From positions 16,569 through 80,568 of the forward strand of contig JAMCQL010000014.1 of NCBI GenBank assembly GCA_023381615.1: a stretch of 64,000 nucleotides of DNA, in the 5' to 3' direction. The DNA is from Bacteroidota bacterium (GTDB lineage: Bacteria > Bacteroidota > Ignavibacteria > Kryptoniales > JAKASW01). The notes under the pieces are model-generated. The model was not told the DNA's origin and ran no database searches. It saw only the letters and a list, made by a program, of their open reading frames with translations. Shown here one piece after another: positions 11,016-46,572 of the stretch. Position 1 is the first letter of the stretch. Every line of letters starts with the position of its first letter. A program made the translations under genes and the position numbers.

Positions 11016-12020
11016 ATGCAAAAAGTAATCACATTAATATTTTTCTTTCTTACACTCTTGGTTAGTGCTTCTGCCGGCATTTATCAAGCTCAGAAGTTTC
11101 CACTTGGCGTTGACAACACTCAGCGCTGCTTGAGATGTCATGGGATGCACAATTTCACTTATGTTGATAGCTCTAAGACTTTAGTTAATCTCACTGTTGA
11201 TTCGACAATTTTCTTCTCATCCGTTCACGGAAAACTCCAATGCCAGTCGTGTCATCCCGGAATAACTGAGTATCCTCACAATCTTTTGGCGGCAGGAAAA
11301 ACGACTTGCGCTTCCGAGTGCCACGCAACGAAAGAAGGCAAACCTTACGATCACAAAACCGTCTACGAAACTTTCTTACACAGTGTTCACGGAAAAAGTC
11401 TTACCGGTAAGGATCCGGACGCACCGACTTGTCTAACGTGTCACGGAGGAAGTGCACACGTGGTGCAGCCTGTCAAAAAGGTGATGAAGGTGGACGAGAA
11501 GATGGCACTGTGCGTTTCGTGTCACAGCAATCGTGAGATGATGGTCAAGCACAAGGTCGATCCTAATGCTGTTAGCTCGTATGAAAGAAGTTTCCATTGG
11601 AAAGCGATCCATTATGGATATGACAAGACTGCGGTTTGCGAAAATTGTCATACGAGCCACTCGGTTCTGCCGCCTGAGAACCCGTATTCCACAGTGAACA
11701 CGGCAAATCTTGAAAAGACTTGCGGACAGACCAATTGTCATCCGGGTGCAAAAATGAACTTTGCTATGTCAAATGCAAACCACCTCGAGTTTATGGTGGA
11801 AAAGAAACCAGTCCTTCGATACGAGGAGAAATTTTTTTATGTCTTGACGGACGGCACTTTAATGATGCTTGCGGTAGGAATTGTGCTTGATGTTCAGCGG
11901 AAATTTGGCTGGATCTTTTTGATCAAGAGATTGTTCGTTTGGCTTGATAGAAAGACAGACCAGCTTGGGAACATGATCGTGAAAGTCTTGAAATTCATAA
12001 AAAAAGTATTAGTGGATTGA
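11016..12020 (+). CDS. membrane-anchored multihaem c-type cytochrome
   Basis: Has a signal/anchor sequence and five CXXCH motifs (CLRCH, CQSCH, CLTCH, CVSCH, CENCH). It also has CASECH and CGQTNCH variants and a C-terminal hydrophobic helix. Confidence 0.8.
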   Translation: MQKVITLIFFFLTLLVSASAGIYQAQKFPLGVDNTQRCLRCHGMHNFTYVDSSKTLVNLTVDSTIFFSSVHGKLQCQSCHPGITEYPHNLLAAGKTTCASECHATKEGKPYDHKTVYETFLHSVHGKSLTGKDPDAPTCLTCHGGSAHVVQPVKKVMKVDEKMALCVSCHSNREMMVKHKVDPNAVSSYERSFHWKAIHYGYDKTAVCENCHTSHSVLPPENPYSTVNTANLEKTCGQTNCHPGAKMNFAMSNANHLEFMVEKKPVLRYEEKFFYVLTDGTLMMLAVGIVLDVQRKFGWIFLIKRLFVWLDRKTDQLGNMIVKVLKFIKKVLVD

Positions 12021-12028
12021 GGTTCACC

Positions 12029-12799
12029 ATGAAAGAAAACAAACAAAAAGAGAATCAAGAATACTTTGTAAGATTAAACTTATTCCAGAGAATTCAGCAC
12101 TGGATGCTGCTAGGCAGTTTTATCCTTCTCGCTGTCACCGGACTTCCAATGAGGTTCCCGGATGTCCGATGGCTTGGATTTGTCTATCGTCTTGTCGGCG
12201 GGTTGGAAGTAGCCCGAACAATTCACCGGATTGCAGCCGTGATTATGATTGTTGGTGGGCTTATTCATTTAGGCTACATACTCTATTTACTCAAGAAGAA
12301 CAACTTCAAAATCCTTAAGGCTTGGCCCATGATACCTACATGGAAAGATGCGGTCGACTGGTGGAAGACGTCGCTTTACTATTTTGGGTTGAGGGACAGT
12401 CTTCCTCAGTATGATCGTTTCAATTTCCGTGAGAAGTTCGATTACTTTGCTGTGTTCTGGGGATTGCCGGTTATGATGCTTTCCGGATTAGTTCTCTGGT
12501 TCCCAGTCTTTTTTGGAAACCATCTTCCAAATCTTGCGATTGACATTGCATATATCGCCCACAGCGATGAGGCAATTCTCGCAATCTCGGCAATTGTACT
12601 CTGGCATTTTTACAACGTGCATTACGATCCCGACAAGTTTCCAATGAGCTGGATATGGTGGCACGGTAAGATCTCAAAAGAAGAAATAAAAAAAGAACAC
12701 CCACTTGAGTATCAAAGACTTATTTTGTCTGATATTGCCGACAACTCAATCAGCAACAAGCAATCCTTAGAAATAAATCCAAAACAAAACAAAAGATGA
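12029..12799 (+). CDS. integral-membrane b-type cytochrome subunit (FdhC/PhsC/hydrogenase cyt b-like)
   Basis: Multiple TM helices carry conserved His residues (RIQHWMLL, TIHRIAAV, IAHSDEA, LWHFYNVH). I chose the ATG at 12029 after GAGG; a TTG at 12017 is also possible. Confidence 0.65.
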   Translation: MKENKQKENQEYFVRLNLFQRIQHWMLLGSFILLAVTGLPMRFPDVRWLGFVYRLVGGLEVARTIHRIAAVIMIVGGLIHLGYILYLLKKNNFKILKAWPMIPTWKDAVDWWKTSLYYFGLRDSLPQYDRFNFREKFDYFAVFWGLPVMMLSGLVLWFPVFFGNHLPNLAIDIAYIAHSDEAILAISAIVLWHFYNVHYDPDKFPMSWIWWHGKISKEEIKKEHPLEYQRLILSDIADNSISNKQSLEINPKQNKR

Positions 12800-12843
12800 T
12801 TACTTATTCAAAAAAACTCTTTCAATTGGAGGTTAGTTACGCA

Positions 12844-14862
12844 ATGTCTTCCTCAAAAAAGAAACGCTGGATAATTCGAATAGCTGGACTGGTAATAGTC
12901 CTTGCGCTGTTCGTGTACTTTGATTGGTCGAACCTGCTAAACCTGATTGTCCCTTACAATGTACGCACCGGTGAAGTTGACTATTCATCACATCCGGTTA
13001 GTAATGCTCAGTTTGAACAAATAGCGCAATCTCTCCTTAATTCAAAATTTGATTACCAGACGATTGATTCGTCGGCGTTGTCAAACTCTGTATATAAACA
13101 GGTTGCACGGACTCTCGCTGAAAATCACCTTCCCTCGTTATACCAAAAAATCGGCTTGAACCACATTGACTATTTTCGTAAAGCCGGCATTCGAGAATAT
13201 GACGGCCCAAAAACTTGCTTGAAATGTCATTCGACAATCCAGGTAAAGAACAGCCACGGCAGTTATGACAAGGTAAGTCTGAAAGAAGACGTTCTTTCGA
13301 GCGTTCATTTCAGGCTGAACATGTGGCATGGTTTCAGCACTGTTGGTTTTGACGGCAGACCGGTTAAAGATATTCCCTTGGGAAAGATCGACCGTGCTTG
13401 TGGAATACCGGGAAGTTTTACGTGGGTGGCATGGGCTGCCTTAGTTAAAACAAAAAACGGGGAAACCAGAAGCGATGGATGCGGCCAGTGCCATATTGGC
13501 GGAAATTACGGTCCGCCTACCGGAACTATGCTGCCGGGTTACAAGCCGACTGATGATGAATTCAATTCTATAGATTGCCTGATTTGTCACTCGCAGTCAT
13601 ACGACATGAATCAGCTTTATGTTGTCAAAGATCCGAATGGCAAACTCCGTTGGCATCAGGATAGAAGTCTTGAAGCTGCAATGTCAGTTACAAAGCCGAC
13701 GAACAACACTTGCTTGCGATGTCATCAACATAATTTCGGCGGCGACCTCTATCCGGGAAATGTTGCAGCACATGAACTTGGGTATAAAAATCCTCGACTT
13801 CTTCACCCGGGCGCAAAGAGAGGTACGCCATTTGGCATCGAGGATGTTCACTATAGAGCTGGTGTTCAATGTCTCGATTGCCACGAAGCCCACGGACACA
13901 AGATCGCGCGCGGCGATATGGGGACCGACCTGATCGACAACGATCTACCCGGCGTCAAGGTAAGCTGCACAAAGTGTCACGGGGACTCTCCGCACATTCA
14001 GAATCCCGTTACCCGCGCATTCTTGAATGCTCACACCGATAAGATTGCTTGCGAGACTTGCCACATCCCAAGCCTGCGGCCAGAAAACGTTGTGCTGCGA
14101 GACTGGGCAGATCCGGTATTCAGCGATGAGGAGCAACTTTACGTTTACCGTGACGTGCTTCGTTCGGGCGCTCCTGATACAGCGATCGTTTATAAGTGGT
14201 GGAACGGCTGGGGAACGTTCATGGCAGGTGCTCTCGGAGATAATCCGAATGGACTTCATACTTACTATGCCTTCACCACTCATCCCGATTCAGCGTTCAA
14301 GAACTTCAACTATAAGGCATACTACGACAGCGTGCTGAGACCTGTTGCCGATCTTGGCAAGTCGAAGATCTATCCGTTCAAGAGATTCAATGCCAAGATG
14401 TACGAGGATATGGACAATCAGGGGCCTTTCGGCGGAATGATCCTTCCATTCGACTACCCAACTTATTATGAAACGGGCGACGCAAAAAAATCAGTCGAAG
14501 TGGCGCTTCAGCAGCCGATCATGAAAGAACTCTACGGTTCAATGTTCAAGTACTATATTATGGACGACTACATGCATTACATGGACATCGAGAAAGGCTG
14601 GACGATTCCATTTACGAACAACATTGAAGCGAAGTGGATGAGACAGGATGCAACCCTTATGTTGAACCATTACATCAGAAAGAGTCAAGCTCTACAGTGT
14701 CAGCAGTGTCATGCTCCTGTAGGAAAGGGAATCATGCCTTTTGAAGAATTAGGTTATCCGCCGGCTCGCGTGAAGGACCTTAGAAATCTTCCGGAGCTTA
14801 AGTTCGTTCTTCCGCTTGAAAAAGCTGAGCAGTTGCGAAATGCAAAGGTGACTGCCAAGTAG
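12844..14862 (+). CDS. octahaem c-type cytochrome, N-terminally anchored
   Basis: Eight CXXCH motifs (CLKCH, CGQCH, CLICH, CLRCH, CLDCH, CTKCH, CETCH, CQQCH). The ATG at 12844 follows GGAGG. TM helix WIIRIAGLVIVLALFVYF. Confidence 0.8.
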   Translation: MSSSKKKRWIIRIAGLVIVLALFVYFDWSNLLNLIVPYNVRTGEVDYSSHPVSNAQFEQIAQSLLNSKFDYQTIDSSALSNSVYKQVARTLAENHLPSLYQKIGLNHIDYFRKAGIREYDGPKTCLKCHSTIQVKNSHGSYDKVSLKEDVLSSVHFRLNMWHGFSTVGFDGRPVKDIPLGKIDRACGIPGSFTWVAWAALVKTKNGETRSDGCGQCHIGGNYGPPTGTMLPGYKPTDDEFNSIDCLICHSQSYDMNQLYVVKDPNGKLRWHQDRSLEAAMSVTKPTNNTCLRCHQHNFGGDLYPGNVAAHELGYKNPRLLHPGAKRGTPFGIEDVHYRAGVQCLDCHEAHGHKIARGDMGTDLIDNDLPGVKVSCTKCHGDSPHIQNPVTRAFLNAHTDKIACETCHIPSLRPENVVLRDWADPVFSDEEQLYVYRDVLRSGAPDTAIVYKWWNGWGTFMAGALGDNPNGLHTYYAFTTHPDSAFKNFNYKAYYDSVLRPVADLGKSKIYPFKRFNAKMYEDMDNQGPFGGMILPFDYPTYYETGDAKKSVEVALQQPIMKELYGSMFKYYIMDDYMHYMDIEKGWTIPFTNNIEAKWMRQDATLMLNHYIRKSQALQCQQCHAPVGKGIMPFEELGYPPARVKDLRNLPELKFVLPLEKAEQLRNAKVTAK

Positions 14863-15455: not shown

Positions 15456-15932
15456 ATGCAGACAGACTTGGGAGTTTACGATCCGGTCTTGACAATTGGG
15501 ACAGTTGCGAAGATGCTTGATATTGCGGTTCAGACGATAAGGATGTACGAGCAGGAGGGGCTGATTATAGCCTACAAGACTGAGGGCGGGCACCGGATGT
15601 ATTCGCTGCATGATGTGGAAAGACTTCGATGCATCAGGAAGATGATTACGGAGCATGGGCTGAACATCAACGGGATTAGGAAAATGATGTCTCTAGTTCC
15701 TTGTTGGGGCTTCAAAGGAGGACTGGATGATGAATGCAGACAATGTCCTGTGTACTATGACGCCGAAGGCCCATGCTGGGCGCAAAAGAATGTCGGGTCA
15801 AAGTGCCGGCTGGCAGATTGCAGATCTTGCCCCGTCTACAGAATTGAGTTTAACTGCACTACAATAAAGGAAGTCGTTTTTGGACATAAAAGAGATATAA
15901 AACCACTTTCAAATCAAGAACAAAAAAAGTAA
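15456..15932 (+). CDS. MerR-family regulator, paralog with the same P-C-W Cys-rich module
   Basis: HTH is IGTVAKMLDIAVQTIRMYE. The C-terminus reads VPCWGFKGGLDDECRQCPVYYDAEGPCWAQKNVGSKCRLADCRSCPVYR and aligns without gaps to 10579..11013. Confidence 0.8.
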   Translation: MQTDLGVYDPVLTIGTVAKMLDIAVQTIRMYEQEGLIIAYKTEGGHRMYSLHDVERLRCIRKMITEHGLNINGIRKMMSLVPCWGFKGGLDDECRQCPVYYDAEGPCWAQKNVGSKCRLADCRSCPVYRIEFNCTTIKEVVFGHKRDIKPLSNQEQKK

Positions 15933-15943
15933 ATGAGGAAATT

Positions 15944-17182
15944 ATGAAAAAACTTGTGATTCTCGGAGCGGGCACAGCAGGAACCATCATGCTCAACAAA
16001 TTGTCTGCTGCGCTTGACAAAAAGGAATGGCAAATAACGATTGTGGATCAAAACGAGACGCACTATTATCAGCCAGGCTTTCTCTTCATACCCTTTGGAA
16101 TTTATACGCGAGACGATGTTATCAAACCGAGGCGCGACTTCTTTCCGTCCGGCACTGAAGTCATCATTTCTCCTATCGAGTTAATTCTCCCGGCGGAAAA
16201 TAAAGTCAAACTTGCCAACGGGAAAGTTCTTAACTATGATTACTTGATAATTGCGACCGGCACCCAGATCCGTCCCGAAGAGCTGGATGGCTTGACAGGT
16301 GACGGATGGAGACAAAACATTTTCGACTTCTACACGGTTGATGGTGCTGTGGCGCTGAGCAACTTTTTGAAATACTGGAAAGGCGGCAAGATGGTGCTAA
16401 ACATCGTGGAGATGCCGATAAAGTGTCCGGTCGCACCTCTTGAATTCGTATTCCTGGCTGATTGGTGGTTTACTGAACAAGGGATCCGGGACAAAGTTGA
16501 GATCGAGTATGTAACACCATTGCCAGGTGCATTCACAAAGCCGATCGCATCAAAGTTTCTCGGCCAGTTTCTTGAAAAGAAAAATATCAATTTGACCACC
16601 GATTTTAGTACAGGCAAAGTTGACAGCGGAAACAATAAAATCGTTTCATGGGACGGGAAAGAGATTTCCTACGATCTGTTGGTTACGATTCCGACCAACA
16701 TGGGTTCAGATCTGATTGCACGTTCCGGCATGGGAGACGATTTGAATTACGTCCCGACAGATCCCAAAACGCTCCAGTCAAAGAATTACGAAAACGTTTT
16801 TGTGATTGGCGACGCGGTCGACTTGCCTACATCGAAAGCAGGTTCGGTTGCGCACTTCGAAGCCGAGATACTTTTCGAAAATTTCCTGAGAAAGATTGAA
16901 GGACGGAAACTTGAACCCAAATTCGATGGGCATGCCAACTGCTTCATAGAGTCCGGGTTTGGGAAGGGGATTCTGATCGATTTCAATTATGATGTTGAGC
17001 CTCTGCCGGGCAAGTTTCCTCTTCCGGGCATCGGCCCGTTCTCGCTCCTTCAGGAGACGCGCATGAATCATTGGGGGAAAATGACGTTCCGCTCAGTTTA
17101 TTGGAATCTCCTTTTGAAAGGCGCGGAATTACCTGTTGAATCCCAAATGAACATGGCAGGAAAAATGAGGATGCAGCAATGA
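15944..17182 (+). CDS. FAD-dependent pyridine-nucleotide-disulfide oxidoreductase, sulfide:quinone oxidoreductase-like
   Basis: 412 aa. Has the N-terminal KKLVILGAGTAGT Rossmann motif and VFVIGDAVDLPTSKAG. Confidence 0.7.
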   Translation: MKKLVILGAGTAGTIMLNKLSAALDKKEWQITIVDQNETHYYQPGFLFIPFGIYTRDDVIKPRRDFFPSGTEVIISPIELILPAENKVKLANGKVLNYDYLIIATGTQIRPEELDGLTGDGWRQNIFDFYTVDGAVALSNFLKYWKGGKMVLNIVEMPIKCPVAPLEFVFLADWWFTEQGIRDKVEIEYVTPLPGAFTKPIASKFLGQFLEKKNINLTTDFSTGKVDSGNNKIVSWDGKEISYDLLVTIPTNMGSDLIARSGMGDDLNYVPTDPKTLQSKNYENVFVIGDAVDLPTSKAGSVAHFEAEILFENFLRKIEGRKLEPKFDGHANCFIESGFGKGILIDFNYDVEPLPGKFPLPGIGPFSLLQETRMNHWGKMTFRSVYWNLLLKGAELPVESQMNMAGKMRMQQ

Positions 17183-17898
17183 GCACAGAGTTAATCGAAC
17201 AGCAGTTGGCGGATATTCAGCAAAAGCTGAATTTTATCAGTGAGGAAATGCAGGAATATCGCGCACGTCAACGCGAGTTGCAGGAGTTCAAGAACGATTT
17301 CACACTGATTGCCAAAGATGTTTTCCAGGCAGCGTCGGAAGAACTCGAGGAGGTGGGGAATCACTTTGACACGGCAGACATTCTTCACCTGTTCAAGAAG
17401 CTGCTGAGAAACGTCAGGAATTTGAACAAGATGCTGGATCAGATGGAGAGCGCACAAGATCTCTTCCGCGATGCAGGGCCGCTTGGGAAGATAGTGTTCG
17501 ATGAACTTCTGCATAAACTTGATGAGATGGATAAGAGAGGATACTTCGATTTCCTTCATGAGGCAGGAAAGTTAGTTGACCAGGTCGTTACTTCCTTCAG
17601 TCACGAAGATGTGCGCCTGTTGAGGGAAAACGTCGTTTCCATTCTTTTGACCGTCAAGACCATAACTCAACCAGAAATGTTAGCACTTACGAACAATGCT
17701 GTCGGATTCTTCAAAAAGATGAATGCCGATGTAAGAGAGAATGTTTCTTTCTTTGAGCTTCTGAAAATACTCAGAGACCCGCAAACGAGGCGGGGGATTG
17801 TCTTCATGCTGGAGTTCGTAAGGAAAATGGCGAGCTCCAATGGAGGAACGACTCAAGGGCACATTACAAGCAGTAACTTATTAACCAAAGGAGAATAA
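17179..17898 (+). CDS. DUF1641-like protein (usual partner of SQR-like flavoproteins)
   Basis: 239 aa, helical. The C-terminal LLKILRDPQTRRGIVFMLEFVRKM resembles the DUF1641 signature. It overlaps the upstream gene by 4 nt. Confidence 0.5.
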   Translation: MSTELIEQQLADIQQKLNFISEEMQEYRARQRELQEFKNDFTLIAKDVFQAASEELEEVGNHFDTADILHLFKKLLRNVRNLNKMLDQMESAQDLFRDAGPLGKIVFDELLHKLDEMDKRGYFDFLHEAGKLVDQVVTSFSHEDVRLLRENVVSILLTVKTITQPEMLALTNNAVGFFKKMNADVRENVSFFELLKILRDPQTRRGIVFMLEFVRKMASSNGGTTQGHITSSNLLTKGE

Positions 17899-17900
17899 CC

Positions 17901-18218
17901 ATGGCAATGAAAAATCTGGCGGGAAAAACCGTCGAAGTAAATGATGAAGGCTTTTTGGCAAATCCGAATGATTGGACAGAAGATATGGCGCCAGAGCTGG
18001 CAAAGGAAGAAGGGATAAATACCCTGACCGAACAGCATTTGAAAGTTATACGATTTATGAGACAGGACTACAAAGAGAAAGGACAGATCCCAACGATAAG
18101 GCGCATTAAGAATGCAAGTGGAGTTGGCGTGCAGGATCTTTACGCTCTTTTTCCTGAGGGTCCTGCAAAAAAGGCAGCAAAGATTGCCGGACTTGGTAAA
18201 CCGGTCGGCTGCGTGTGA
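17901..18218 (+). CDS. TusE/DsrC-family sulfur-relay protein (single C-terminal Cys)
   Basis: 105 aa ending ...GLGKPVGCV. Only the penultimate Cys is present, and the second DsrC Cys about 10 residues upstream is absent. Confidence 0.75.
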   Translation: MAMKNLAGKTVEVNDEGFLANPNDWTEDMAPELAKEEGINTLTEQHLKVIRFMRQDYKEKGQIPTIRRIKNASGVGVQDLYALFPEGPAKKAAKIAGLGKPVGCV

Positions 18219-18272
18219 ACTATTCTTTGAAATTTCTAACAAAAATTTATTTATCGGAAAGGAAACTTTAAA

Positions 18273-18743
18273 ATGGCTGAAGAAAAGATCAAAAAAGTCT
18301 CCATTGTTGTTTCTAAAGGATCGCTTGAAGGAATCTATCCCGGTTTGATCATGGCAAATGGGGCAAGGATGGAGGGAATGGAAGCCAACCTGTTCTTCAC
18401 TTTCTTTGGGTTGGAAGCGGTTTTGAAGAACAAGATGGACAAAATAAAAGTCGCAACGGTTGGCAATCCTGCGATGCATCTTCCATCATTGCTAGGCATA
18501 ATTCCCGGGATGTCGGCATTTGCCACTTCCAAGATGAAAAAGGAAATGGAGAAGTTAGACATACCACCTGTCGGAGAATTCATAGAGATGATCCACGATG
18601 CTGGCGCTAAGCTTTACGCATGTAAAGCAACGGTGGAGATGTTTCATCTCACGAAAGATGATTTCTGCGGACAAGTAGAGGCAATTATTCCGGTTGGGAA
18701 ATTTTATGAAGTCTCCGCTGGCGGACAGATAATTTTTACATAA
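18273..18743 (+). CDS. DsrE/DsrF-like (COG2210-type) sulfur-transfer family protein
   Basis: 156 aa. Has KVSIVVSKGSLEG...FFTFFGL...LYACKATVEMF. Confidence 0.65.
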   Translation: MAEEKIKKVSIVVSKGSLEGIYPGLIMANGARMEGMEANLFFTFFGLEAVLKNKMDKIKVATVGNPAMHLPSLLGIIPGMSAFATSKMKKEMEKLDIPPVGEFIEMIHDAGAKLYACKATVEMFHLTKDDFCGQVEAIIPVGKFYEVSAGGQIIFT

Positions 18744-24490: not shown

Positions 24491-24875
24491 CTCATTGCGT
24501 GCTGACCTGTTTTCAAGATGGGAAAAATGCTCCAAAAAAACAACGACTGAAAAGCTCACTATCTCATCTCAACTTTTCCAGCGTCATTTTCCAAATCCAC
24601 GTGAAAGCCGGGGGATATTCGCGATGCCTATCGCGGTATTTGCAAGTGCGGAAAAGGAAGCCAACTCGTTGAAACGAAAGGCGGCCAACCGGATATCGCA
24701 CGCAACTCTTGCAGCTATGGTGAAAAGCATTCGCATAGAACGACGTGTTAAGACGCATTTGGATTTCCCAATCCGATATTGAACGCTAAGGATAAGGTTT
24801 ATAAATTTTTTGTTATGAAGTACTTATCAGTTGTGAGATGAGGAGATGAGAATACCATTTTTCTATCGTGAACGA

Positions 24876-25841
24876 ATGAACGTTAAGAAAATCCTGCAGA
24901 GAAGCAGAGTTAGACGATCCTTCTTGAAGATCGTGACCGCTGCAATTCTTTTGCTCTCGGGGACGTCGAGACCTGCTTCTGCCTGTGCATGTGGTTGCGG
25001 TGTGTTCAATGTAGGCACCAGATGGATGATGATTACGGGGACCGGCTTACGCGTATTCTTTCAGTATTCCTATATGGATCAAAATAGGAATTGGTCGCGA
25101 TTGAGTTTGGCTGAATCCAGCTTTAACAATGACAAAGAGATAAGGACAAGTTTCTATACGCTCGGCTTTCAATATATGTTCGATAGGGATTGGGGAATCA
25201 TGGGGCAGTTTCCTTATTGGGACCGTTATTTTAACACCATAGATAATTTTGGCGCCCCCGTTTCTGTTGACCATAAAGCTATCGGCGATGTTCGTTTGCT
25301 TGGGATGTACACCGGTTTTTCCCCAGACATGTCGAAGGCTCTCCTTTTCGGGGTGAAGCTTCCGACAGGACCAACGAATCTTTCTATCATGGACAGAGAC
25401 ACGCAGATAGGAACAGGAACTACCGACCTCCTTCTGGGCGGATACCATGCGGCACAGTTAGATTACTGGGGATGGTACTTACAAATCATGTGGAGACATG
25501 CGCTGAATACTTATCAAGACTATCGGCCCGGCGACAGCTATAATATGGCACTCGGTTTCCACTATGATTCCTTTTTGCAGGATTCTTCGGGCGAGGACAA
25601 ATACAAATTTACACCTATCGTCCAACTGATTGCTTCAATAAGAAATCGAGACAGTGGGGCAAACTCGGATCCGTCTAACACCGGTTTCCAAAGATTATAT
25701 GTGGCGCCCGGTTTTGAGATTGATCTGAAAAATAATTGGCAGCTTTACGGTGAGGTTCAAGTCCCAGTATACACCCTTGTAAACGGTTATCAGCTTGTCG
25801 CGCTCTTACTTTTCAACGCGAGCATCAGTTATCATTTCTGA
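24876..25841 (+). CDS. outer-membrane beta-barrel protein (MetA-pathway/transporter-like) with N-terminal CACGCG motif
   Basis: Has a signal peptide, then ASACACGCGVFNVG and alternating beta-strand patterns. The C-terminus is ...SISYHF. Confidence 0.55.
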   Translation: MNVKKILQRSRVRRSFLKIVTAAILLLSGTSRPASACACGCGVFNVGTRWMMITGTGLRVFFQYSYMDQNRNWSRLSLAESSFNNDKEIRTSFYTLGFQYMFDRDWGIMGQFPYWDRYFNTIDNFGAPVSVDHKAIGDVRLLGMYTGFSPDMSKALLFGVKLPTGPTNLSIMDRDTQIGTGTTDLLLGGYHAAQLDYWGWYLQIMWRHALNTYQDYRPGDSYNMALGFHYDSFLQDSSGEDKYKFTPIVQLIASIRNRDSGANSDPSNTGFQRLYVAPGFEIDLKNNWQLYGEVQVPVYTLVNGYQLVALLLFNASISYHF

Positions 25842-26987: not shown

Positions 26988-27310
26988 TTTCTGAGCTTTT
27001 TAACAAAAATCGCAAAAAAATGACGAAGAAACAACGTAAGTGTTCTGGCTCAATACAAAAGGTGTACATGCCCCGCGACGGGACGCCACGGCGGATGAAA
27101 ATGCGGCACGTGACCGTCACTTTTATGTCAGATTGTCAGTGCATTGCAATATTGACACAAGTGACGGTCACCTTCACATTAAACATACAAGGTTGAATAA
27201 GGCTGGAGTGCCCTGTGGCAGAACATTTGGCATTTTCGAGGGAGGGAGTATTAACATTGTGAAGCGGGTATTGCGTTTCCATTTTCAAACGAAGGACCGT
27301 AAAATTATTT

Positions 27311-27339
27311 GTAGAATCCGATTCGGAATCGGATTCTAC
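27311..27339 (-). terminator. hairpin terminator downstream of the cytochrome-porin gene
   Basis: GTAGAATCCGAT-TCGGA-ATCGGATTCTAC forms a 12-bp perfect stem. On the minus strand it is followed by AAATAATTTT. Confidence 0.55.
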
Positions 27340-27393
27340 GGAGACATTTGGCTCCGACGGCGACCATCGGAGCGAGAAGACGGAATTCTCAAG

Positions 27394-28653
27394 TCAAAAA
27401 TCAAAGTCTACAAGCACCGTAAAAAGATTATCCTTGGTCGGGTTTGTTGTTCCTATTTCTCTATATGTATACTCTCCATGAAGCGCAACATTGAACGCTG
27501 TCCAGTCGCCAAGATAATACCTCACAAGTGCGGAGTACGCATTGATAGACCTTCCGTTATCATAAGATGGCGGCGTAACCCAGTTGTAAAGCACAGAGGC
27601 TATAAGTCTATTGTTCATCAGCGCTGCCCAATCAAGCTCTACAAACCCACCTGAATATCGATAATCTTTTGTAGGATCCAAAGTGTTAAGAGCCTTGTCA
27701 TCATTACCACCCATGACAAGTACTTCGAGATTTAATGTTGACCAGTTAAGGCTGACATCCCCGCCAAGTTTGTAAAACGGCTTGTTACCACTGCCATTCG
27801 TCTCGCCGGTTGGTGCAACAACGCTGCCTGGAAGAACGGTAGGCTGCCATCCATAATAACCAAATACGCCTATCCTCTGGCCGGCGCTCTGCCCATCACC
27901 TTTGCCAATTATCTGAACAAGGTTAAGGTATACGTCTTTATAGTTACTGTTATCAGGATTGCCGCCATTGCCGTTAACGACACCAAGTCCATACTTAAAG
28001 CCGCTCTTGAAATGTCCTGTTGCCTCAACACCCATCTGATTATCGGAAAACAGATAGCTGTTTGCTGGTGTGGTGAACGTGTAAACCTCGTAAGGCTCCA
28101 TGATATAAAATGAGCGGTGTGAACTGAACACCTGATAAGCGGGTTCAAACCTGCCTATCCTGAGATTAAGAGCATTCTGGACAATGTTGCTGAATACAAT
28201 ATTTGCTGATTCCATTGAGCCTAACTGCGATGGGTTGGCACCATTGTTAGGGCCAGCGTAGTCTCCTGCGGGCTCGTCAATTCTCGGTGTATAGATAAGC
28301 AGGAATGAGATATTTTTGTGAAGTACGCCCGCTGCAAGCAGATCAAGCCCGTAGACATTAAAGCCTGATGTAGCACCCTGTTTTGAATCATATACAGAAA
28401 ACCCTACCGGTGTTCGCATTGATATAGGTGGTGGTATTTCAAAGACGTTCTTTTCATACCCTTCTTGTCCAGGGATTTGATACCCGTTATCTCTGAACCT
28501 CTGGCCAAAATCATTTAACTTTGGAAACGCCGTATGGCACATTGTGCAAGTGAAGCCATACTTTCTTGCAAATGCCGGTATGGCATGAGCCGTTTCCGGC
28601 ACTAAAAAAGACAGAGCAATAAATGCTAATATCAAAACATAAAGTTTTTTCAT
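27394..28653 (-). CDS. fused monohaem cytochrome c / outer-membrane beta-barrel protein (Cyc2-like architecture)
   Basis: Signal peptide, then FARKYGFTCTMCHTAFPKLNDFG (single CXXCH followed by P-x-L). About 370 aa of barrel-like sequence follows, ending ...VLVDFDF. Confidence 0.7.
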   Translation of the reverse strand: MKKLYVLILAFIALSFLVPETAHAIPAFARKYGFTCTMCHTAFPKLNDFGQRFRDNGYQIPGQEGYEKNVFEIPPPISMRTPVGFSVYDSKQGATSGFNVYGLDLLAAGVLHKNISFLLIYTPRIDEPAGDYAGPNNGANPSQLGSMESANIVFSNIVQNALNLRIGRFEPAYQVFSSHRSFYIMEPYEVYTFTTPANSYLFSDNQMGVEATGHFKSGFKYGLGVVNGNGGNPDNSNYKDVYLNLVQIIGKGDGQSAGQRIGVFGYYGWQPTVLPGSVVAPTGETNGSGNKPFYKLGGDVSLNWSTLNLEVLVMGGNDDKALNTLDPTKDYRYSGGFVELDWAALMNNRLIASVLYNWVTPPSYDNGRSINAYSALVRYYLGDWTAFNVALHGEYTYREIGTTNPTKDNLFTVLVDFDF

Positions 28654-28664
28654 GGCAACCTCCG

Positions 28665-29747
28665 TTATTTAGGCAATTCAGAAACAGGGATGGGTTTCAC
28701 GTGGGCGACTTCCGGATTGTTGCTTGTTAATGCAACGCGCATAAATGCGACCAGAGCCTTGACCTCTTCCTTTGACAGCCCAAGCGGCACGATCAAGGGA
28801 TCAAGATTGGGATCATCATCGCCTCCACCTCTGTTGTAAAGATCAACCACTGTCTCAAGTGTTTTTTCTGAACCATCGTGCATGTAAGGTGGGCGCAGTC
28901 CTGCATCCCTTACAGTTGGGGTTTTAAATGCACCCATGTCTGCTGGATTATGCGTTACATCGTATCTGCCATTATCAACCTTTGATGGCCCTGTTTGCAC
29001 AACACCAAGATTATGGAATCTCCCATCACTGAAGTCGGGTCCCCAATGACATGCTGTGCAGTGTCCTTTGCCATTGAAGATTGCCATACCCTGTTTTTCA
29101 AGAGGTGTAAGAGCCTTTCTATCACCTCTAATGTACCTATCAAATGGTGAATCTGTTGTAACGACAGTGCGTTCAAATGCTGCAATAGCTTGCACAACCT
29201 GAGCTATTGTAATAGGCGTTGTCCCAAACACCTGCTTAAACTCTTCGACGTAACCTGGAATGCCATTAAGTGTTTCAACCACATTATCAAGTGTATTGCC
29301 CATCTCAACCGGATTTTGCATAGGACCTTCTGCCTGCTCTTCAAGACTGGCAGCTCTTCCATCCCAGAATTGCAGAGGGTTATATGCAGCATTTGAAACA
29401 GGTGGGGCTCTGCGAGGGCCTTTCTGTCCATGAATACCCGTGCTTGTTGGACCTGCATCGGACCAGCCCATAGCTGGGTCATGGCAAGTTTGACAGCTCA
29501 CCGTATTGTCTTTTGATAAACGGGTATCAAAGTAAAGCTGCTTGCCAAGCTGTACCTTCATGCTTGTTTGCGGGTTATCAGGCGGAACAGGAACCGGAGG
29601 GAGATTACCGATTCTCTGTGGACCAAGGGAATGCACATTAATAGTCGTAATATTCGGAAGAACTTGCTGCTTGGGACTCCCCTGTGCAATTAAACTTGAA
29701 GGAGCTATGAGTACCGCAAGCATCAGAAAATACTTTGCACGTTTCAT
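28665..29747 (-). CDS. di-haem cytochrome c peroxidase (CCP/MauG family)
   Basis: 360 aa with a signal peptide. Has CQTCHDP and CTACHWGP haem motifs, and PTVRDAGLRPPYMHDG. Confidence 0.85.
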   Translation of the reverse strand: MKRAKYFLMLAVLIAPSSLIAQGSPKQQVLPNITTINVHSLGPQRIGNLPPVPVPPDNPQTSMKVQLGKQLYFDTRLSKDNTVSCQTCHDPAMGWSDAGPTSTGIHGQKGPRRAPPVSNAAYNPLQFWDGRAASLEEQAEGPMQNPVEMGNTLDNVVETLNGIPGYVEEFKQVFGTTPITIAQVVQAIAAFERTVVTTDSPFDRYIRGDRKALTPLEKQGMAIFNGKGHCTACHWGPDFSDGRFHNLGVVQTGPSKVDNGRYDVTHNPADMGAFKTPTVRDAGLRPPYMHDGSEKTLETVVDLYNRGGGDDDPNLDPLIVPLGLSKEEVKALVAFMRVALTSNNPEVAHVKPIPVSELPK

Positions 29748-29823
29748 CGAAGCCTCCTATTTTAATGTTAGGCGAATTTAGATAGTAGTTTTGTAAAATG
29801 CAACTTGCAAAAAGTATTTTTGG

Positions 29824-29943
29824 GTAATCCGTCAGTGATGAGGGTAAGTTACAACCTTGCGAAGGTTCGAAACCATCGCAAGGTTCTATTCTCTCGGGAC
29901 GGCGAGGTGTCTTGTCCTAACCACACCGTCACTGACGGATTAC
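29824..29943. repeat. 120-nt element bounded by perfect 15-bp inverted repeats
   Basis: GTAATCCGTCAGTGA (29824..29838) pairs with TCACTGACGGATTAC (29929..29943). Inside lies the AACCTTGCGAAGGTT-CGA-AACCATCGCAAGGTT hairpin. Confidence 0.6.
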
Positions 29944-30017
29944 GAACGGCATGTTGAAGATTTTTGCAACTTCCGCCGCTAACTGTTAAATTTTCACGCA
30001 AAAAACCTTTTGAAAAG

Positions 30018-46315: not shown

Positions 46316-46572
46316 TGTTCCTCCTTTTTCTTGTTTTCAAACTTGATGCTGCCGTTTATTTAGAAAATTTCATTGATGGATTACCGTTTTCAAACATCGG
46401 GGAGAAATTCTTGATGATTGAATTGAAGTGTATGCTTTCGATCATTGTTATAAATATCGCAGGAGTGGGCTGAGGTTGCAAGTGGAGTCGGCAGATTAGT
46501 ATTTCTCGATAACGTTTGATTTATTGAATGTGCATAGATACCTTATTCGAGAAGTATAGAGGAGGAAAGTAT

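What the first reader, a model, noticed from the sequence alone, without database searches (positions are those of the whole stretch)
27394..29747. Cyc2-like fused monohaem cytochrome-porin paired with a di-haem CCP/MauG-family protein
The 419-aa protein has a signal peptide and then FARKYGFTCTMCHTAFPKLNDFG, a single CXXCH followed by P-x-L. The rest is porin-sized barrel-like sequence ending in Phe.

One N-terminal haem c fused to an outer-membrane barrel defines Cyc2-type Fe(II) oxidases (Acidithiobacillus, Zetaproteobacteria, Gallionellaceae, Chlorobium ferrooxidans).

The gene lies 11 nt downstream of, and co-directional with, a di-haem peroxidase-family gene. I do not know that pairing from described Cyc2 loci. 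The di-haem protein could be the periplasmic electron acceptor, or the pair could act on peroxide.
Basis: partly seen in the sequence, partly recalled or inferred. Interest (0 to 1): 0.6.

Follow-up and report, generated by a model that had tools for sequence, protein, structure and literature searches.

The report
Cyc2-like haem-porin with dedicated peroxidase
A two-gene operon pairs an outer-membrane haem-carrying pore of the Cyc2 iron-oxidase superfamily with an unusual tyrosine-type di-haem peroxidase, which suggests that some 'iron-oxidation marker' genes found in metagenomes serve peroxide removal rather than growth on iron.

Summary
Window 28665-29747(-) encodes a 360-aa di-haem CCP_MauG protein. 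Eleven nt downstream, 27394-28653(-) encodes a 419-aa protein with a signal peptide, one CXXCH and a C-terminal Phe.

The 419-aa protein matches no Pfam, NCBIfam or PDB sequence. It does carry the published Cyc2 signature, AxPxFAR[K/Q][Y/T]...CXXCH...PxL. Its AF2 model is a porin barrel resembling OprP and OprO. Profile searches link it to about 3,140 clusters with the same architecture, including an Acidithiobacillus cyc2-cyc1 locus.

The pairing is real and clade-specific. A CCP gene lies directly upstream in 10 of 10 members checked, with unrelated flanks, across several phyla. It is absent from 117 of 120 random superfamily loci. Other Cyc2 clades carry other c-type cytochrome genes next door.

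The peroxidase resembles canonical bCCPs overall. However, the Met ligand of the second haem is replaced by an invariant Tyr, as in MauG and BthA.

Best reading (about 0.45): electrons from extracellular Fe(II) or another reductant pass through the porin haem to the peroxidase and on to H2O2. The main rival is a MauG-like maturase acting on the barrel protein.

I found no paper describing the pairing. I rate it a new variant of a known kind.

The parts
28665..29747 (-). Gene for a secreted 360-aa di-haem peroxidase of the bCCP/MauG superfamily. It is first in the operon.
   Evidence: ORF. Pfam CCP_MauG 212 bits. Best PDB relatives are canonical bCCPs: 1NML at 2.3e-66, against MbnH at 1e-44 and MauG at about 1e-28. 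It scores below the NCBIfam cutoffs for MauG (244 vs 443.85) and MbnH (228 vs 362.85).
29481..29495 (-). Haem-binding motif 1 of the peroxidase (C85-Q-T-C-H89), the peroxidatic N-terminal haem
   Evidence: Read from the sequence. It aligns to the first CXXCH of the bCCPs.
29046..29060 (-). Haem-binding motif 2 of the peroxidase (C230-T-A-C-H234), the second haem
   Evidence: Read from the sequence. It aligns to the second CXXCH of the bCCPs.
28836..28838 (-). Codon for Tyr304 (in VDLYNRGGG). It occupies the position of the Met275 haem ligand of bCCPs and of Tyr294 of MauG.
   Evidence: The explicit alignment to 1NML puts Y304 opposite M275. The MauG alignments end at query 306 = chain 296. Y304 is invariant in all 9 module peroxidases, whereas M289 is not, and the L133 fragment also has it. 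PMC7567364 states that this Tyr is conserved in MauGs and replaced by Met or His in CCPs.
28654..28664 (-). 11-nt intergenic spacer carrying the ribosome-binding site (CGGAGG) of the second gene
   Evidence: Sequence. In relatives the two genes overlap by 4 nt (L002, L130, L132) or are 11-18 nt apart.
27394..28653 (-). Gene for a 419-aa Cyc2-superfamily fused monohaem cytochrome-porin. It is second in the operon.
   Evidence: ORF. No Pfam, NCBIfam or PDB sequence match. At least 1,306 close homologs and 3,140 representative clusters in the superfamily.
28585..28653 (-). Signal peptide (residues 1-23, cleavage predicted after AHA)
   Evidence: By inspection of the translation. The position is conserved in alignment A1.
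28429..28584 (-). Cytochrome domain (about residues 24-75). It contains A24-I-P-A-F-A-R-K-Y32, C36-T-M-C-H40 (nt 28534-28548) and P44-K-L46.
   Evidence: The motif is as defined in PMC8406198. hhalign against the Acidithiobacillus-type Cyc2 group over residues 3-90 gives probability 98.5% and E 2.3e-15. BLASTP gives 5e-17 to the Mariprofundus homolog and 1e-9 to the Acidithiobacillus homolog.
27397..28428 (-). Porin beta-barrel (about residues 76-419), with a long conserved inward loop at about 170-205 and a C-terminal Phe
   Evidence: AF2 model with mean pLDDT 75.8 and pTM 0.77, showing 17 DSSP strand segments, read here as 16 strands. The top Foldseek PDB hits are 16-strand porins, including OprP 2O4V and OprO 4RJW, with E 1e-12 to 1e-10.
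27311..27339 (-). Terminator-like hairpin ending the two-gene operon
   Evidence: 13-bp stem followed by AAATAATTTT. A 14-nt perfect inverted repeat.
29824..29943 (-). Strongly structured element in the upstream intergenic region. It may be a 5'-leader or regulatory structure, or an inserted repeat. Whether it belongs to the operon is unproven.
   Evidence: A 15-nt perfect inverted repeat encloses an 18-nt hairpin. The RNA fold has z = -5.1. No Rfam match.

Best explanation
This is a self-contained two-gene operon with two products.

Gene 1 makes a periplasmic di-haem peroxidase. It resembles bacterial cytochrome c peroxidases overall. Its second haem is predicted to be His/Tyr-ligated, as in MauG and BthA.

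Gene 2 makes an outer-membrane protein of the Cyc2 superfamily. It has one c-type haem on a short N-terminal domain fused to a porin barrel of about 16 strands.

Proposed mechanism:
- Fe(II), or another small extracellular reductant, enters or contacts the pore and reduces the porin's haem.
- That haem is the dedicated electron donor to the neighbouring peroxidase.
- The peroxidase has reacted with H2O2 at its five-coordinate haem to reach a high-valent state, and is re-reduced by two such one-electron transfers.

The net reaction is 2 Fe(II) + H2O2 + 2 H+ -> 2 Fe(III) + 2 H2O. It takes place at the cell envelope. It removes peroxide, and its Fenton partner, without spending cellular reductant. 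It would not conserve energy.

What is shown: the gene structure, the domain architecture, superfamily membership, the porin fold, the conserved clade-specific pairing, and the Tyr substitution. What is inferred: the direction of electron flow, the physical contact between the two proteins, Fe(II) as the donor, and the physiological role.
For: (1) Cyc2-superfamily identity. The protein has the exact AXPXFAR[K][Y] + CXXCH + PXL signature, a length of 419 aa, and a porin fold matching OprP and OprO. Profile links reach an Acidithiobacillus cyc2-cyc1 locus and a Mariprofundus homolog.

(2) The pairing is a conserved unit. CCP lies directly upstream in 10 of 10 clade members, down to roughly 50% identity. 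These come from MAGs labelled Bacteroidota, Eisenbacteria, Krumholzibacteriia, Acidobacteriota and Pseudomonadota, with unrelated flanks. The stop and start codons often overlap.

(3) The pairing is clade-specific. It is absent from P0146, P0148 and 117 of 120 random superfamily loci.

(4) A general rule holds across the superfamily. In 52 of 100 complete Cyc2-like loci, the co-directional neighbouring ORF carries CXXCH motifs. The type depends on the clade: a c4-like di-haem protein in Acidithiobacillus (the known Cyc2 acceptor Cyc1) and Acidobacteria, a 4-5-haem protein in Ignavibacteria, or a monohaem protein. Here the peroxidase sits in the slot that redox partners occupy elsewhere.

(5) The peroxidase keeps the peroxide-reacting site: Glu148/Met149 (= Glu114/Met115) and the inter-haem Trp128.

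(6) A Tyr-ligated di-haem enzyme can still turn over H2O2 catalytically, as BthA does (PMC6405878).

(7) No Trp, Tyr, Lys or Cys is conserved specifically in the paired clade. The only clade-specific invariants are M38, G62, R168, A172 and G224. This argues against a dedicated modification target.

(8) From established knowledge: monohaem cytochromes are the natural donors of bCCPs, for example ScyA to CcpA in Shewanella.
Against: - The Met-to-Tyr change is the feature used in the literature to tell MauG-type protein-modifying enzymes from peroxidases.
- In the known cases (MauG/preMADH, MbnH/MbnP), the gene beside such an enzyme encodes its protein substrate. That point rests on my own knowledge.
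- A tyrosinate-ligated haem has a low potential and is not a classical electron-entry haem.
- No member of this clade has been studied. Fe(II) oxidation is shown for only three distant Cyc2 proteins.
- Barrel-only similarity to Acidithiobacillus Cyc2 is not significant in a direct profile-profile comparison (E 0.25). It appears only through intermediate sequences.
- The haem domain is modelled with low confidence (pLDDT below 50 for residues 18-74), so its position relative to the pore and the periplasm is unknown.
- No complex model could be made.
Confidence: 0.45

Rival explanations
1. Maturase and substrate. The di-haem protein is a MauG-like enzyme. It uses H2O2 (or O2 plus electrons) to reach a bis-Fe(IV) state and oxidises one or more residues of the neighbouring barrel protein by long-range hole transfer. 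This would install a protein-derived cofactor or cross-link that the porin-cytochrome needs.
For: Tyr304 sits at the MauG Tyr294 / bCCP Met275 position and is invariant in all module peroxidases. The His71-type distal ligand of activatable bCCPs is not conserved. Gene adjacency with a secreted partner mirrors MauG/preMADH and MbnH/MbnP (my own knowledge). The barrel is unusually conserved for a porin, with 66% mean column identity across phyla. By comparison, characterised Cyc2s share 17-50% identity.
Against: The protein is far closer to true peroxidases than to MauG or MbnH (1e-66 vs 1e-28 and 1e-44) and falls below both NCBIfam cutoffs. No aromatic, Lys or Cys residue is conserved specifically in the paired clade. 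Other Cyc2 clades work without such an enzyme and carry electron-transfer cytochromes in the same genomic slot. BthA shows that the Tyr ligand is compatible with catalytic peroxidase activity. Overlapping stop and start codons suggest equimolar production.
Confidence: 0.2
2. Peroxide-driven oxidation of something outside the cell. Electron flow is the same (outside -> porin haem -> peroxidase -> H2O2), but the purpose differs. The strongly oxidising peroxidase would oxidise an extracellular substrate other than Fe(II), such as Mn(II), reduced humics or sulfide minerals. Alternatively the pair would use H2O2 as a respiratory-type oxidant.
For: This rests on the same structural evidence as the best explanation. 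High-valent Tyr-type di-haem enzymes are very strong oxidants (PMC6405878). The pore loops are highly conserved, suggesting a specific substrate path. The host genome carries other multihaem electron-transfer modules.
Against: Nothing here points to a particular substrate. Periplasmic reduction of H2O2 with external electrons builds no proton gradient. The only demonstrated substrate of the superfamily is Fe(II).
Confidence: 0.12
3. Ordinary lithotrophic or photoferrotrophic Cyc2. The porin-cytochrome feeds electrons to the respiratory chain as in Zetaproteobacteria or Acidithiobacillus. The peroxidase is only a co-expressed guard against the reactive oxygen produced when Fe(II) meets O2.
For: The Cyc2 signature and architecture. 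Peroxide stress is expected during Fe(II) oxidation.
Against: No cyc1-like, c4-type or oxidase genes accompany the pair in any of the loci. The hosts are FCB-group and other MAGs not known as iron oxidisers. The strict one-to-one linkage and overlapping codons fit a direct partner better than a bystander.
Confidence: 0.1
4. Chance neighbours: a general porin that happens to contain CXXCH, next to an unrelated peroxidase.
For: The barrel alone resembles general porins, and there is no family annotation.
Against: The CXXCH and the 9-residue Cyc2 motif are invariant across thousands of homologs. Adjacency holds in 10 of 10 cases despite different flanks.
Confidence: 0.02

Closest known systems
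Cyc2 fused cytochrome-porins (A. ferrooxidans Cyc2, Leptospirillum Cyt572, Mariprofundus Cyc2PV-1; Keffer et al. 2021, PMC8406198)
   Same: Signal peptide, a single N-terminal CXXCH, the AXPXFAR[Q/K][T/Y] and PXL motifs, a length above 365 aa, and a porin of about 16 strands resembling OprP and OprO. The cytochrome domain is far better conserved than the barrel. A cytochrome gene lies next door.
   Different: This clade is much more conserved internally (61-98% identity, against 17-50% among characterised Cyc2s). It occurs mainly in FCB-group MAGs not known to oxidise iron. Its fixed neighbour is a di-haem peroxidase placed upstream, not a Cyc1/c4-type carrier downstream. Direct barrel similarity to Acidithiobacillus and Mariprofundus Cyc2 is not significant.
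Bacterial di-haem cytochrome c peroxidases (e.g. Marinobacter/Pseudomonas CCP 1NML, Geobacter CcpA/MacA, Nitrosomonas CCP 1IQC)
   Same: These are the best sequence relatives (E about 1e-66). They share two CXXCH motifs, the inter-haem Trp, the Glu/Met of the peroxidatic pocket, and periplasmic export. They are reduced by small monohaem cytochromes.
   Different: The Met275 ligand of the electron-entry haem is replaced by an invariant Tyr. The His71 distal ligand is not conserved. The tight family carries a conserved N-terminal extension of about 45 residues. The gene is genetically fixed to an outer-membrane cytochrome-porin.
MauG, MbnH and BthA (Tyr-ligated di-haem enzymes that form bis-Fe(IV))
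   Same: Tyr at the position of the second haem's axial ligand. No distal His on the first haem. For MauG and MbnH, the gene is encoded beside a secreted partner protein.
   Different: Overall similarity is much lower (MauG 1e-28, MbnH 1e-44, BthA 6e-15). The protein falls below the NCBIfam cutoffs for MauG and MbnH. No mau or mbn genes are present. The partner is a haem protein, and no clade-specific modifiable residue was found.
Acidithiobacillus rus-operon pair cyc2-cyc1
   Same: The outer-membrane Cyc2 gene lies immediately beside the gene for its periplasmic di-haem electron acceptor. This is seen here in L030, with a 15-nt spacer.
   Different: The partner there is a 213-aa c4-type electron carrier located downstream, which feeds an oxidase. 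Here the partner is a catalytic peroxidase located upstream.

Membership tests
Cyc2 fused cytochrome-porin superfamily (criteria of Keffer et al. 2021) | Signal peptide and a single CXXCH near the N-terminus | tested here: met
   Residues 1-23 form the signal peptide, and C36-H40 is the only CXXCH. The CXXCH is invariant in 40 of 40 homologs.
Cyc2 fused cytochrome-porin superfamily (criteria of Keffer et al. 2021) | AXPXFAR[Q/K][T/Y] motif upstream of the CXXCH, described as unique to Cyc2, and PXL four residues downstream | tested here: met
   A24-I-P-A-F-A-R-K-Y32, with P44-K-L46 placing P at position +4 after H40. The spacing from Y32 to C36 is 3 residues. The paper says '5 amino acids upstream' without giving a reference point.
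Cyc2 fused cytochrome-porin superfamily (criteria of Keffer et al. 2021) | Length of at least 365 aa | tested here: met
   419 aa.
Cyc2 fused cytochrome-porin superfamily (criteria of Keffer et al. 2021) | C-terminal outer-membrane porin, predicted 16 strands, structurally like OprO and OprP | tested here: met
   The AF2 barrel has pTM 0.77. Foldseek finds OprP 2O4V at 6.5e-11 and OprO 4RJW at 7.6e-11 among the top five hits, and all top hits are 16-strand porins. The strand count from DSSP is 17 segments, read here as 16. The exact number is not settled.
Cyc2 fused cytochrome-porin superfamily (criteria of Keffer et al. 2021) | Sequence similarity to known Cyc2 (blastp <= 1e-5) | tested here: met
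   The Acidithiobacillus sp. protein from a cyc2-cyc1 locus scores 1e-9, and the Mariprofundus sp. homolog 5e-17. These are pairwise E-values and cover the cytochrome domain only. hhalign gives 98.5% probability over residues 3-90. Similarity in the barrel appears only through iterated profiles, at 1e-36 after convergence, and the Mariprofundus barrel is not linked.
Cyc2 fused cytochrome-porin superfamily (criteria of Keffer et al. 2021) | Score above threshold with a FeGenie Cyc2 cluster HMM | not testable with these tools
   The HMMs are not available here, so the cluster (1, 2 or 3) could not be assigned.
Cyc2 fused cytochrome-porin superfamily (criteria of Keffer et al. 2021) | Fe(II) oxidase activity and haem c attachment | not testable with these tools
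   Requires experiment.
Canonical bacterial di-haem cytochrome c peroxidase (bCCP) | CCP_MauG domain with two CXXCH motifs, an inter-haem Trp, and the Glu/Met of the peroxidatic pocket | tested here: met
   Pfam 212 bits. W128, E148 and M149 are conserved.
Canonical bacterial di-haem cytochrome c peroxidase (bCCP) | His/Met ligation of the high-potential electron-entry haem (Met275) | tested here: not met
   Met275 of 1NML aligns with Tyr304, which is invariant in 9 of 9 module peroxidases. The nearby M289 is not conserved.
MauG (TTQ biosynthesis) and MbnH | Tyr axial ligand of the six-coordinate haem | tested here: met
   Y304. The MauG alignments end at query 306 = chain 296.
MauG (TTQ biosynthesis) and MbnH | Equivalog-level sequence score and the cognate operon (mau genes, or mbnP) | tested here: not met
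   TIGR03791 scores 244 against a cutoff of 443.85, and TIGR04039 scores 228 against 362.85. No mau or mbn genes occur in any of the loci.

The most novel reading that the evidence does not exclude
The pair is an envelope-spanning, peroxide-powered oxidase. A MauG/BthA-like bis-Fe(IV) enzyme in the periplasm uses the haem of a Cyc2-type porin as a wire, pulling electrons from substrates outside the cell (Fe(II), or possibly Mn(II), humics or minerals). Under this reading, a sizeable share of the 'cyc2' iron-oxidation marker hits in sediment and groundwater MAGs would report peroxide metabolism rather than iron lithotrophy. A stranger version is also not excluded. In it, the peroxidase installs a protein-derived cofactor inside an outer-membrane barrel, for which I know of no precedent.
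Probability: 0.3. Interest if true: 0.8.

Novelty: new variant of a known kind. Interest (0 to 1): 0.6.

Why it matters
The gene cyc2 is the main marker used to infer iron oxidation from genomes and metagenomes, for example through FeGenie. This work points to a widespread, tightly conserved Cyc2 clade whose fixed partner is a peroxidase rather than a respiratory electron carrier.

If the proposed function is right, three things follow:
- Hits from this clade should not be counted as evidence of iron-based growth.
- Fe(II)-dependent peroxide removal at the outer membrane would be a new defence strategy for anaerobes living at oxic-anoxic interfaces.
- The module would give a compact two-protein system for studying how a single-haem porin passes electrons across the outer membrane, which is still unresolved for Cyc2.

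The survey also shows that each Cyc2 clade has its own adjacent cytochrome partner. That pattern could help predict what each clade does.

Tried and rejected
- I looked for Cyc2 reference sequences in the supplements of PMC8406198. They contain only identity tables and figure legends.
- Looking up names for ten distant representatives gave almost no organism names.
- A direct barrel-only profile-profile comparison with the Acidithiobacillus-type group was not significant (E 0.25). The barrel link therefore rests on iterated searches. A reversed-sequence control gave no hits.
- The Mariprofundus barrel never joined the iterated profile.
- Rfam found nothing in or around the operon.
- Literature searches for Cyc2 together with peroxidase or MauG found no description of the pairing. 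Two Cyc2 evolution papers do not mention peroxidase or FCB phyla.
- I considered H112 and H392, which are invariant in the tight family, as distal haem ligands. I dropped them because they are not invariant in the wider paired clade.
- I considered the chance-neighbour reading and rejected it on the conservation data.
- A model of the complex, haem placement, and cluster assignment with the FeGenie HMMs could not be done with these tools.
Full report
OBSERVATION

ORF 28665..29747(-) encodes 360 aa, and ORF 27394..28653(-) encodes 419 aa. They are co-directional with an 11-nt spacer, and each is preceded by a purine-rich ribosome-binding site. A hairpin with a 13-bp stem and a T-rich tail follows the second gene at 27339-27311(-). 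The flanking genes are housekeeping genes on other transcription units: MqnC downstream, and a divergent sugar-nucleotidyl transferase, MetK and AhcY upstream. This is therefore a two-gene operon.

The 419-aa protein begins with a typical signal peptide that ends AHA. It continues IPAFARKYGFTCTMCHTAFPKLNDFG, has only one CXXCH, and ends in ...VDFDF.

WHAT THE SECOND GENE ENCODES

The protein matches nothing in Pfam, NCBIfam or PDB sequences. It nevertheless has at least 1,306 close homologs. The best 120 are all about 420 aa and 61-98% identical, and where they carry a name it is 'hypothetical protein'. They come from MAGs labelled Bacteroidetes, Ignavibacteriaceae, Zixibacteria and Eisenbacteria. 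The window's own protein is recorded from a Bacteroidota MAG.

In a 40-sequence alignment, mean column identity is 66% and C36, C39 and H40 are invariant.

Keffer et al. 2021 define Cyc2 by five features: a signal peptide, one CXXCH, at least 365 aa, a 16-strand porin resembling OprO and OprP, and a consensus AXPXFAR[Q/K][T/Y] before the CXXCH with PXL four residues after it. They call the first motif unique to Cyc2 (PMC8406198). The window protein has A24-I-P-A-F-A-R-K-Y32, C36-T-M-C-H40 and P44-K-L46.

An AlphaFold2 model built on the alignment (mean pLDDT 75.8, pTM 0.77) is a closed beta-barrel from about residue 78 to the C-terminus. The haem domain (residues 18-74) has low confidence, as expected without the cofactor. 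DSSP gives 17 strand segments. I read the first two (78-90 and 93-100) as one kinked strand, which gives 16 strands with long loops on one face. The exact number is not settled.

Foldseek against the PDB returns 16-strand porins at E 1e-12 to 1e-10. OprP (2O4V) and OprO (4RJW) are among the top five. These are the same templates reported for Cyc2.

LINK TO CANONICAL CYC2

A profile of the family, searched against 1.84 billion representative proteins, finds 3,140 clusters at E <= 1e-3. The whole close family collapses into a single 50%-identity cluster. Every full-length hit has a single CXXCH embedded in the same motif.

The hits lie in Acidobacteriota, Gemmatimonadota, Nitrospirota, Proteobacteria, the FCB group and others. 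They include a Mariprofundus MAG (L012), a Zetaproteobacteria MAG (L059) and an Acidithiobacillus MAG (L030).

In L030 the 474-aa protein is followed, 15 nt later, by a 213-aa c4-type di-haem cytochrome. This is the cyc2-cyc1 arrangement of the rus operon (the operon organisation is from my own knowledge).

Pairwise BLASTP of the window protein gives 5e-17 to the Mariprofundus protein (residues 1-86) and 1e-9 to the Acidithiobacillus protein (residues 22-58). Profile-profile alignment to the Acidithiobacillus-type group gives 98.5% probability over residues 3-90. The barrels alone do not align significantly (E 0.25).

An iterated barrel-only HMM search, scored as if against a database of 1e6 sequences, connects 206 of 208 barrels. 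These include the Acidithiobacillus barrel (1e-36 at convergence) but not the Mariprofundus barrel. Reversed sequences gave no hits.

This pattern of a conserved cytochrome domain and a barely alignable barrel is what the Cyc2 literature describes between clusters, where full-length identity is 17-23%. I therefore file the protein as a member of the Cyc2 superfamily. Two caveats apply. The FeGenie HMM test could not be run. Fe(II) oxidation has been shown for only three distant members.

THE FIRST GENE

The 360-aa protein has a signal peptide without a lipobox, two CXXCH motifs (C85-H89 and C230-H234) and a strong CCP_MauG domain. Its best solved relatives are true peroxidases: Marinobacter CCP 1NML at 2.3e-66, then Geobacter CcpA and MacA, the Nitrosomonas, Paracoccus and Shewanella enzymes, and P. 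aeruginosa CCP at 1.2e-57. MbnH follows at 1e-44, MauG at about 1e-28 and BthA at 6e-15. It falls below the NCBIfam cutoffs for MauG and MbnH.

The inter-haem Trp (W128) and the Glu/Met of the peroxidatic pocket (E148/M149) are present.

One feature departs from the peroxidases. In the printed alignment, Met275 of 1NML, the axial ligand of the high-potential haem, sits opposite Tyr304 (VDLYNRGGG). The MauG alignments end at query 306 = chain 296, which places Y304 on MauG Tyr294. The literature uses this Tyr to separate MauGs from CCPs, in which the position is Met or His (PMC7567364).

Y304 is invariant in all nine module peroxidases examined, including distant ones. The nearby M289 and the His that would correspond to the distal His71 of activatable bCCPs are not conserved.

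So the enzyme is peroxidase-like overall, but it should have a His/Tyr second haem and a five-coordinate first haem, like MauG and BthA. BthA shows that such an enzyme can form bis-Fe(IV) and still turn over H2O2 catalytically (PMC6405878).

THE PAIRING

A CCP_MauG gene lies directly upstream of the Cyc2-like gene in every clade member whose neighbourhood could be read:
- the window and its same-species contigs;
- P0043, P0035 and P0041, at 64-67% identity and with completely different flanks;
- a Krumholzibacteriia genome, L051, and an Acidobacteriota genome, L060;
- the distant representatives P0134 (a Pseudomonadota MAG), P0138, P0135 and P0141, scoring 227-284 bits.

In several of these the stop and start codons overlap by 4 nt.

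The next representatives down, P0146 and P0148 (about 195 bits), have no such neighbour. Among the 120 random superfamily loci, only L051 and L060 have an adjacent peroxidase gene. L069 has one about 4 kb away.

Across 100 loci with a complete Cyc2-like gene, 52 have a co-directional neighbouring ORF with CXXCH motifs, and the type follows the clade:
- c4-like di-haem proteins lie downstream in the Acidithiobacillus-type and Acidobacteria groups;
- 4-5-haem proteins of about 450 aa lie upstream of a 390-aa form in Ignavibacterium, Melioribacteraceae, Caldithrix and Kapabacteria;
- small monohaem proteins occur in other groups.

Cyc2-type genes thus usually travel with a periplasmic haem partner. 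In this clade, that slot is filled by a peroxidase.

MECHANISM

The best-supported reading is a short electron-transfer chain. An extracellular or pore-entering reductant, most plausibly Fe(II), reduces the porin haem. The porin haem reduces the di-haem peroxidase, and the peroxidase reduces H2O2.

Support comes from the partner-slot argument, the intact peroxidatic site, the precedent of monohaem donors for bCCPs, and the tight genetic coupling. A further point is that no Trp, Tyr, Lys or Cys is specific to the paired clade. Its only specific invariants are M38, G62, R168, A172 and G224.

Such a chain would detoxify peroxide and remove Fe(II) at the envelope. It would not conserve energy. I put this reading at about 0.45.

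The main rival, at about 0.2, is that the Tyr-type enzyme is a maturase that modifies the barrel protein, as MauG and MbnH modify their neighbours. The Tyr and the unusual conservation of the barrel favour this rival. The overall peroxidase likeness, the lack of a clade-specific target residue and the partner-slot pattern count against it.

Three other readings are less likely:
- a peroxide-driven oxidation of some other extracellular substrate;
- a classical lithotrophic Cyc2 with a bystander peroxidase;
- chance adjacency, which the conservation data contradict.

NOVELTY

What appears new is a conserved, cross-phylum Cyc2 clade that is hard-wired to a Tyr-type di-haem peroxidase.

Full-text searches for Cyc2 together with peroxidase, CCP or MauG found no description of it. 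Two recent Cyc2 evolution papers mention neither peroxidases nor the FCB phyla. FeGenie-based studies have reported 'cyc2' in Krumholzibacteria and Aminicenantes MAGs and read it as iron oxidation (PMC7914226). The module found here in a Krumholzibacteriia genome (L051) suggests that some such calls may belong to this clade, though I could not test that.

I rate the finding a new variant of a known kind, with interest 0.6.

LIMITS

- No complex model, no haem placement and no FeGenie score could be obtained.
- E-values from my local searches depend on the database size I set.
- The equivalence of Y304 and MauG Tyr294 rests on alignment end coordinates plus the explicit Met275 alignment. It does not rest on a printed MauG alignment.

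Noticed in passing
window 29802-29972 (core 29824-29943): Nested inverted repeats lie in the intergenic region upstream of the peroxidase gene. A perfect 15-nt pair (GTAATCCGTCAGTGA / TCACTGACGGATTAC) encloses an 18-nt hairpin, and both sit inside a 12-nt pair. Folded as RNA on the operon strand, the energy is -67 kcal/mol with z = -5.1. There is no Rfam match. It could be a leader structure, a regulator site or a small inserted repeat. A 2-mismatch copy of one arm occurs at 46370-46384.
   Followed up: partly
window 11016-14862 (+): Three genes with overlapping ends: a pentahaem c-type cytochrome (334 aa), a cytochrome b561 / Ni_hydr_CYTB membrane protein (260 aa), and an octahaem cytochrome (688 aa). 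Together they look like a quinol-linked multihaem electron-transfer module, about 13 kb from the finding.
   Followed up: partly
window 24846-25841 (+): A 331-aa secreted protein with an unusual CACGCG stretch after the signal peptide and a C-terminal ...SYHF. It has no family match, only weak hints of MtrB_PioB and OMP_b-brl barrels. It is conserved in the same position in same-species contigs.
   Followed up: no
window 15456-18743 (+); also L006 19724-21260: A sulfur-related cluster: a MerR regulator, a 412-aa Pyr_redox_2 flavoprotein, a DUF1641 protein and a DsrE-like protein. The list of called genes for same-species contigs also shows a gene with a DsrC Pfam hit beside the DsrE-like gene.
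   Followed up: no
window 26988-27393, compared with L006 11261-11479: The spacer between the Cyc2-like gene and mqnC is 406 nt in the window and in three same-species contigs, but only 219 nt in a fourth (L006). This is a strain-level indel of about 187 nt, in a region that carries several inverted repeats (27110-27171 and 27038-27228).
   Followed up: no
L078, L035, L042, L055, L095, L100, L020, L046 and others (genome-contig loci): A separate Cyc2-like subfamily of about 390-400 aa (motif AIPAFARKYNMSCxTCH..FPKLKxYGDEFAG, C-terminal ...SAF) occurs in Ignavibacterium album, Melioribacteraceae, Caldithrix, Kapabacteria and Chloroherpeton. It is always preceded by a 4-5-haem cytochrome gene of about 450 aa. 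Acidobacteria forms are followed by di-haem cytochromes of about 290-330 aa. Each Cyc2 clade appears to have its own fixed haem partner.
   Followed up: partly
window 28665-29747 (-), residues about 22-60 of the peroxidase: The tight-family peroxidases share a conserved N-terminal extension (T..NV..LGPQK.GNLP.VPVP) ahead of the CCP domain. The extension is missing or shorter in the more distant module peroxidases (L060, L130, L132). Its role is unknown; it might be a docking segment.
   Followed up: no
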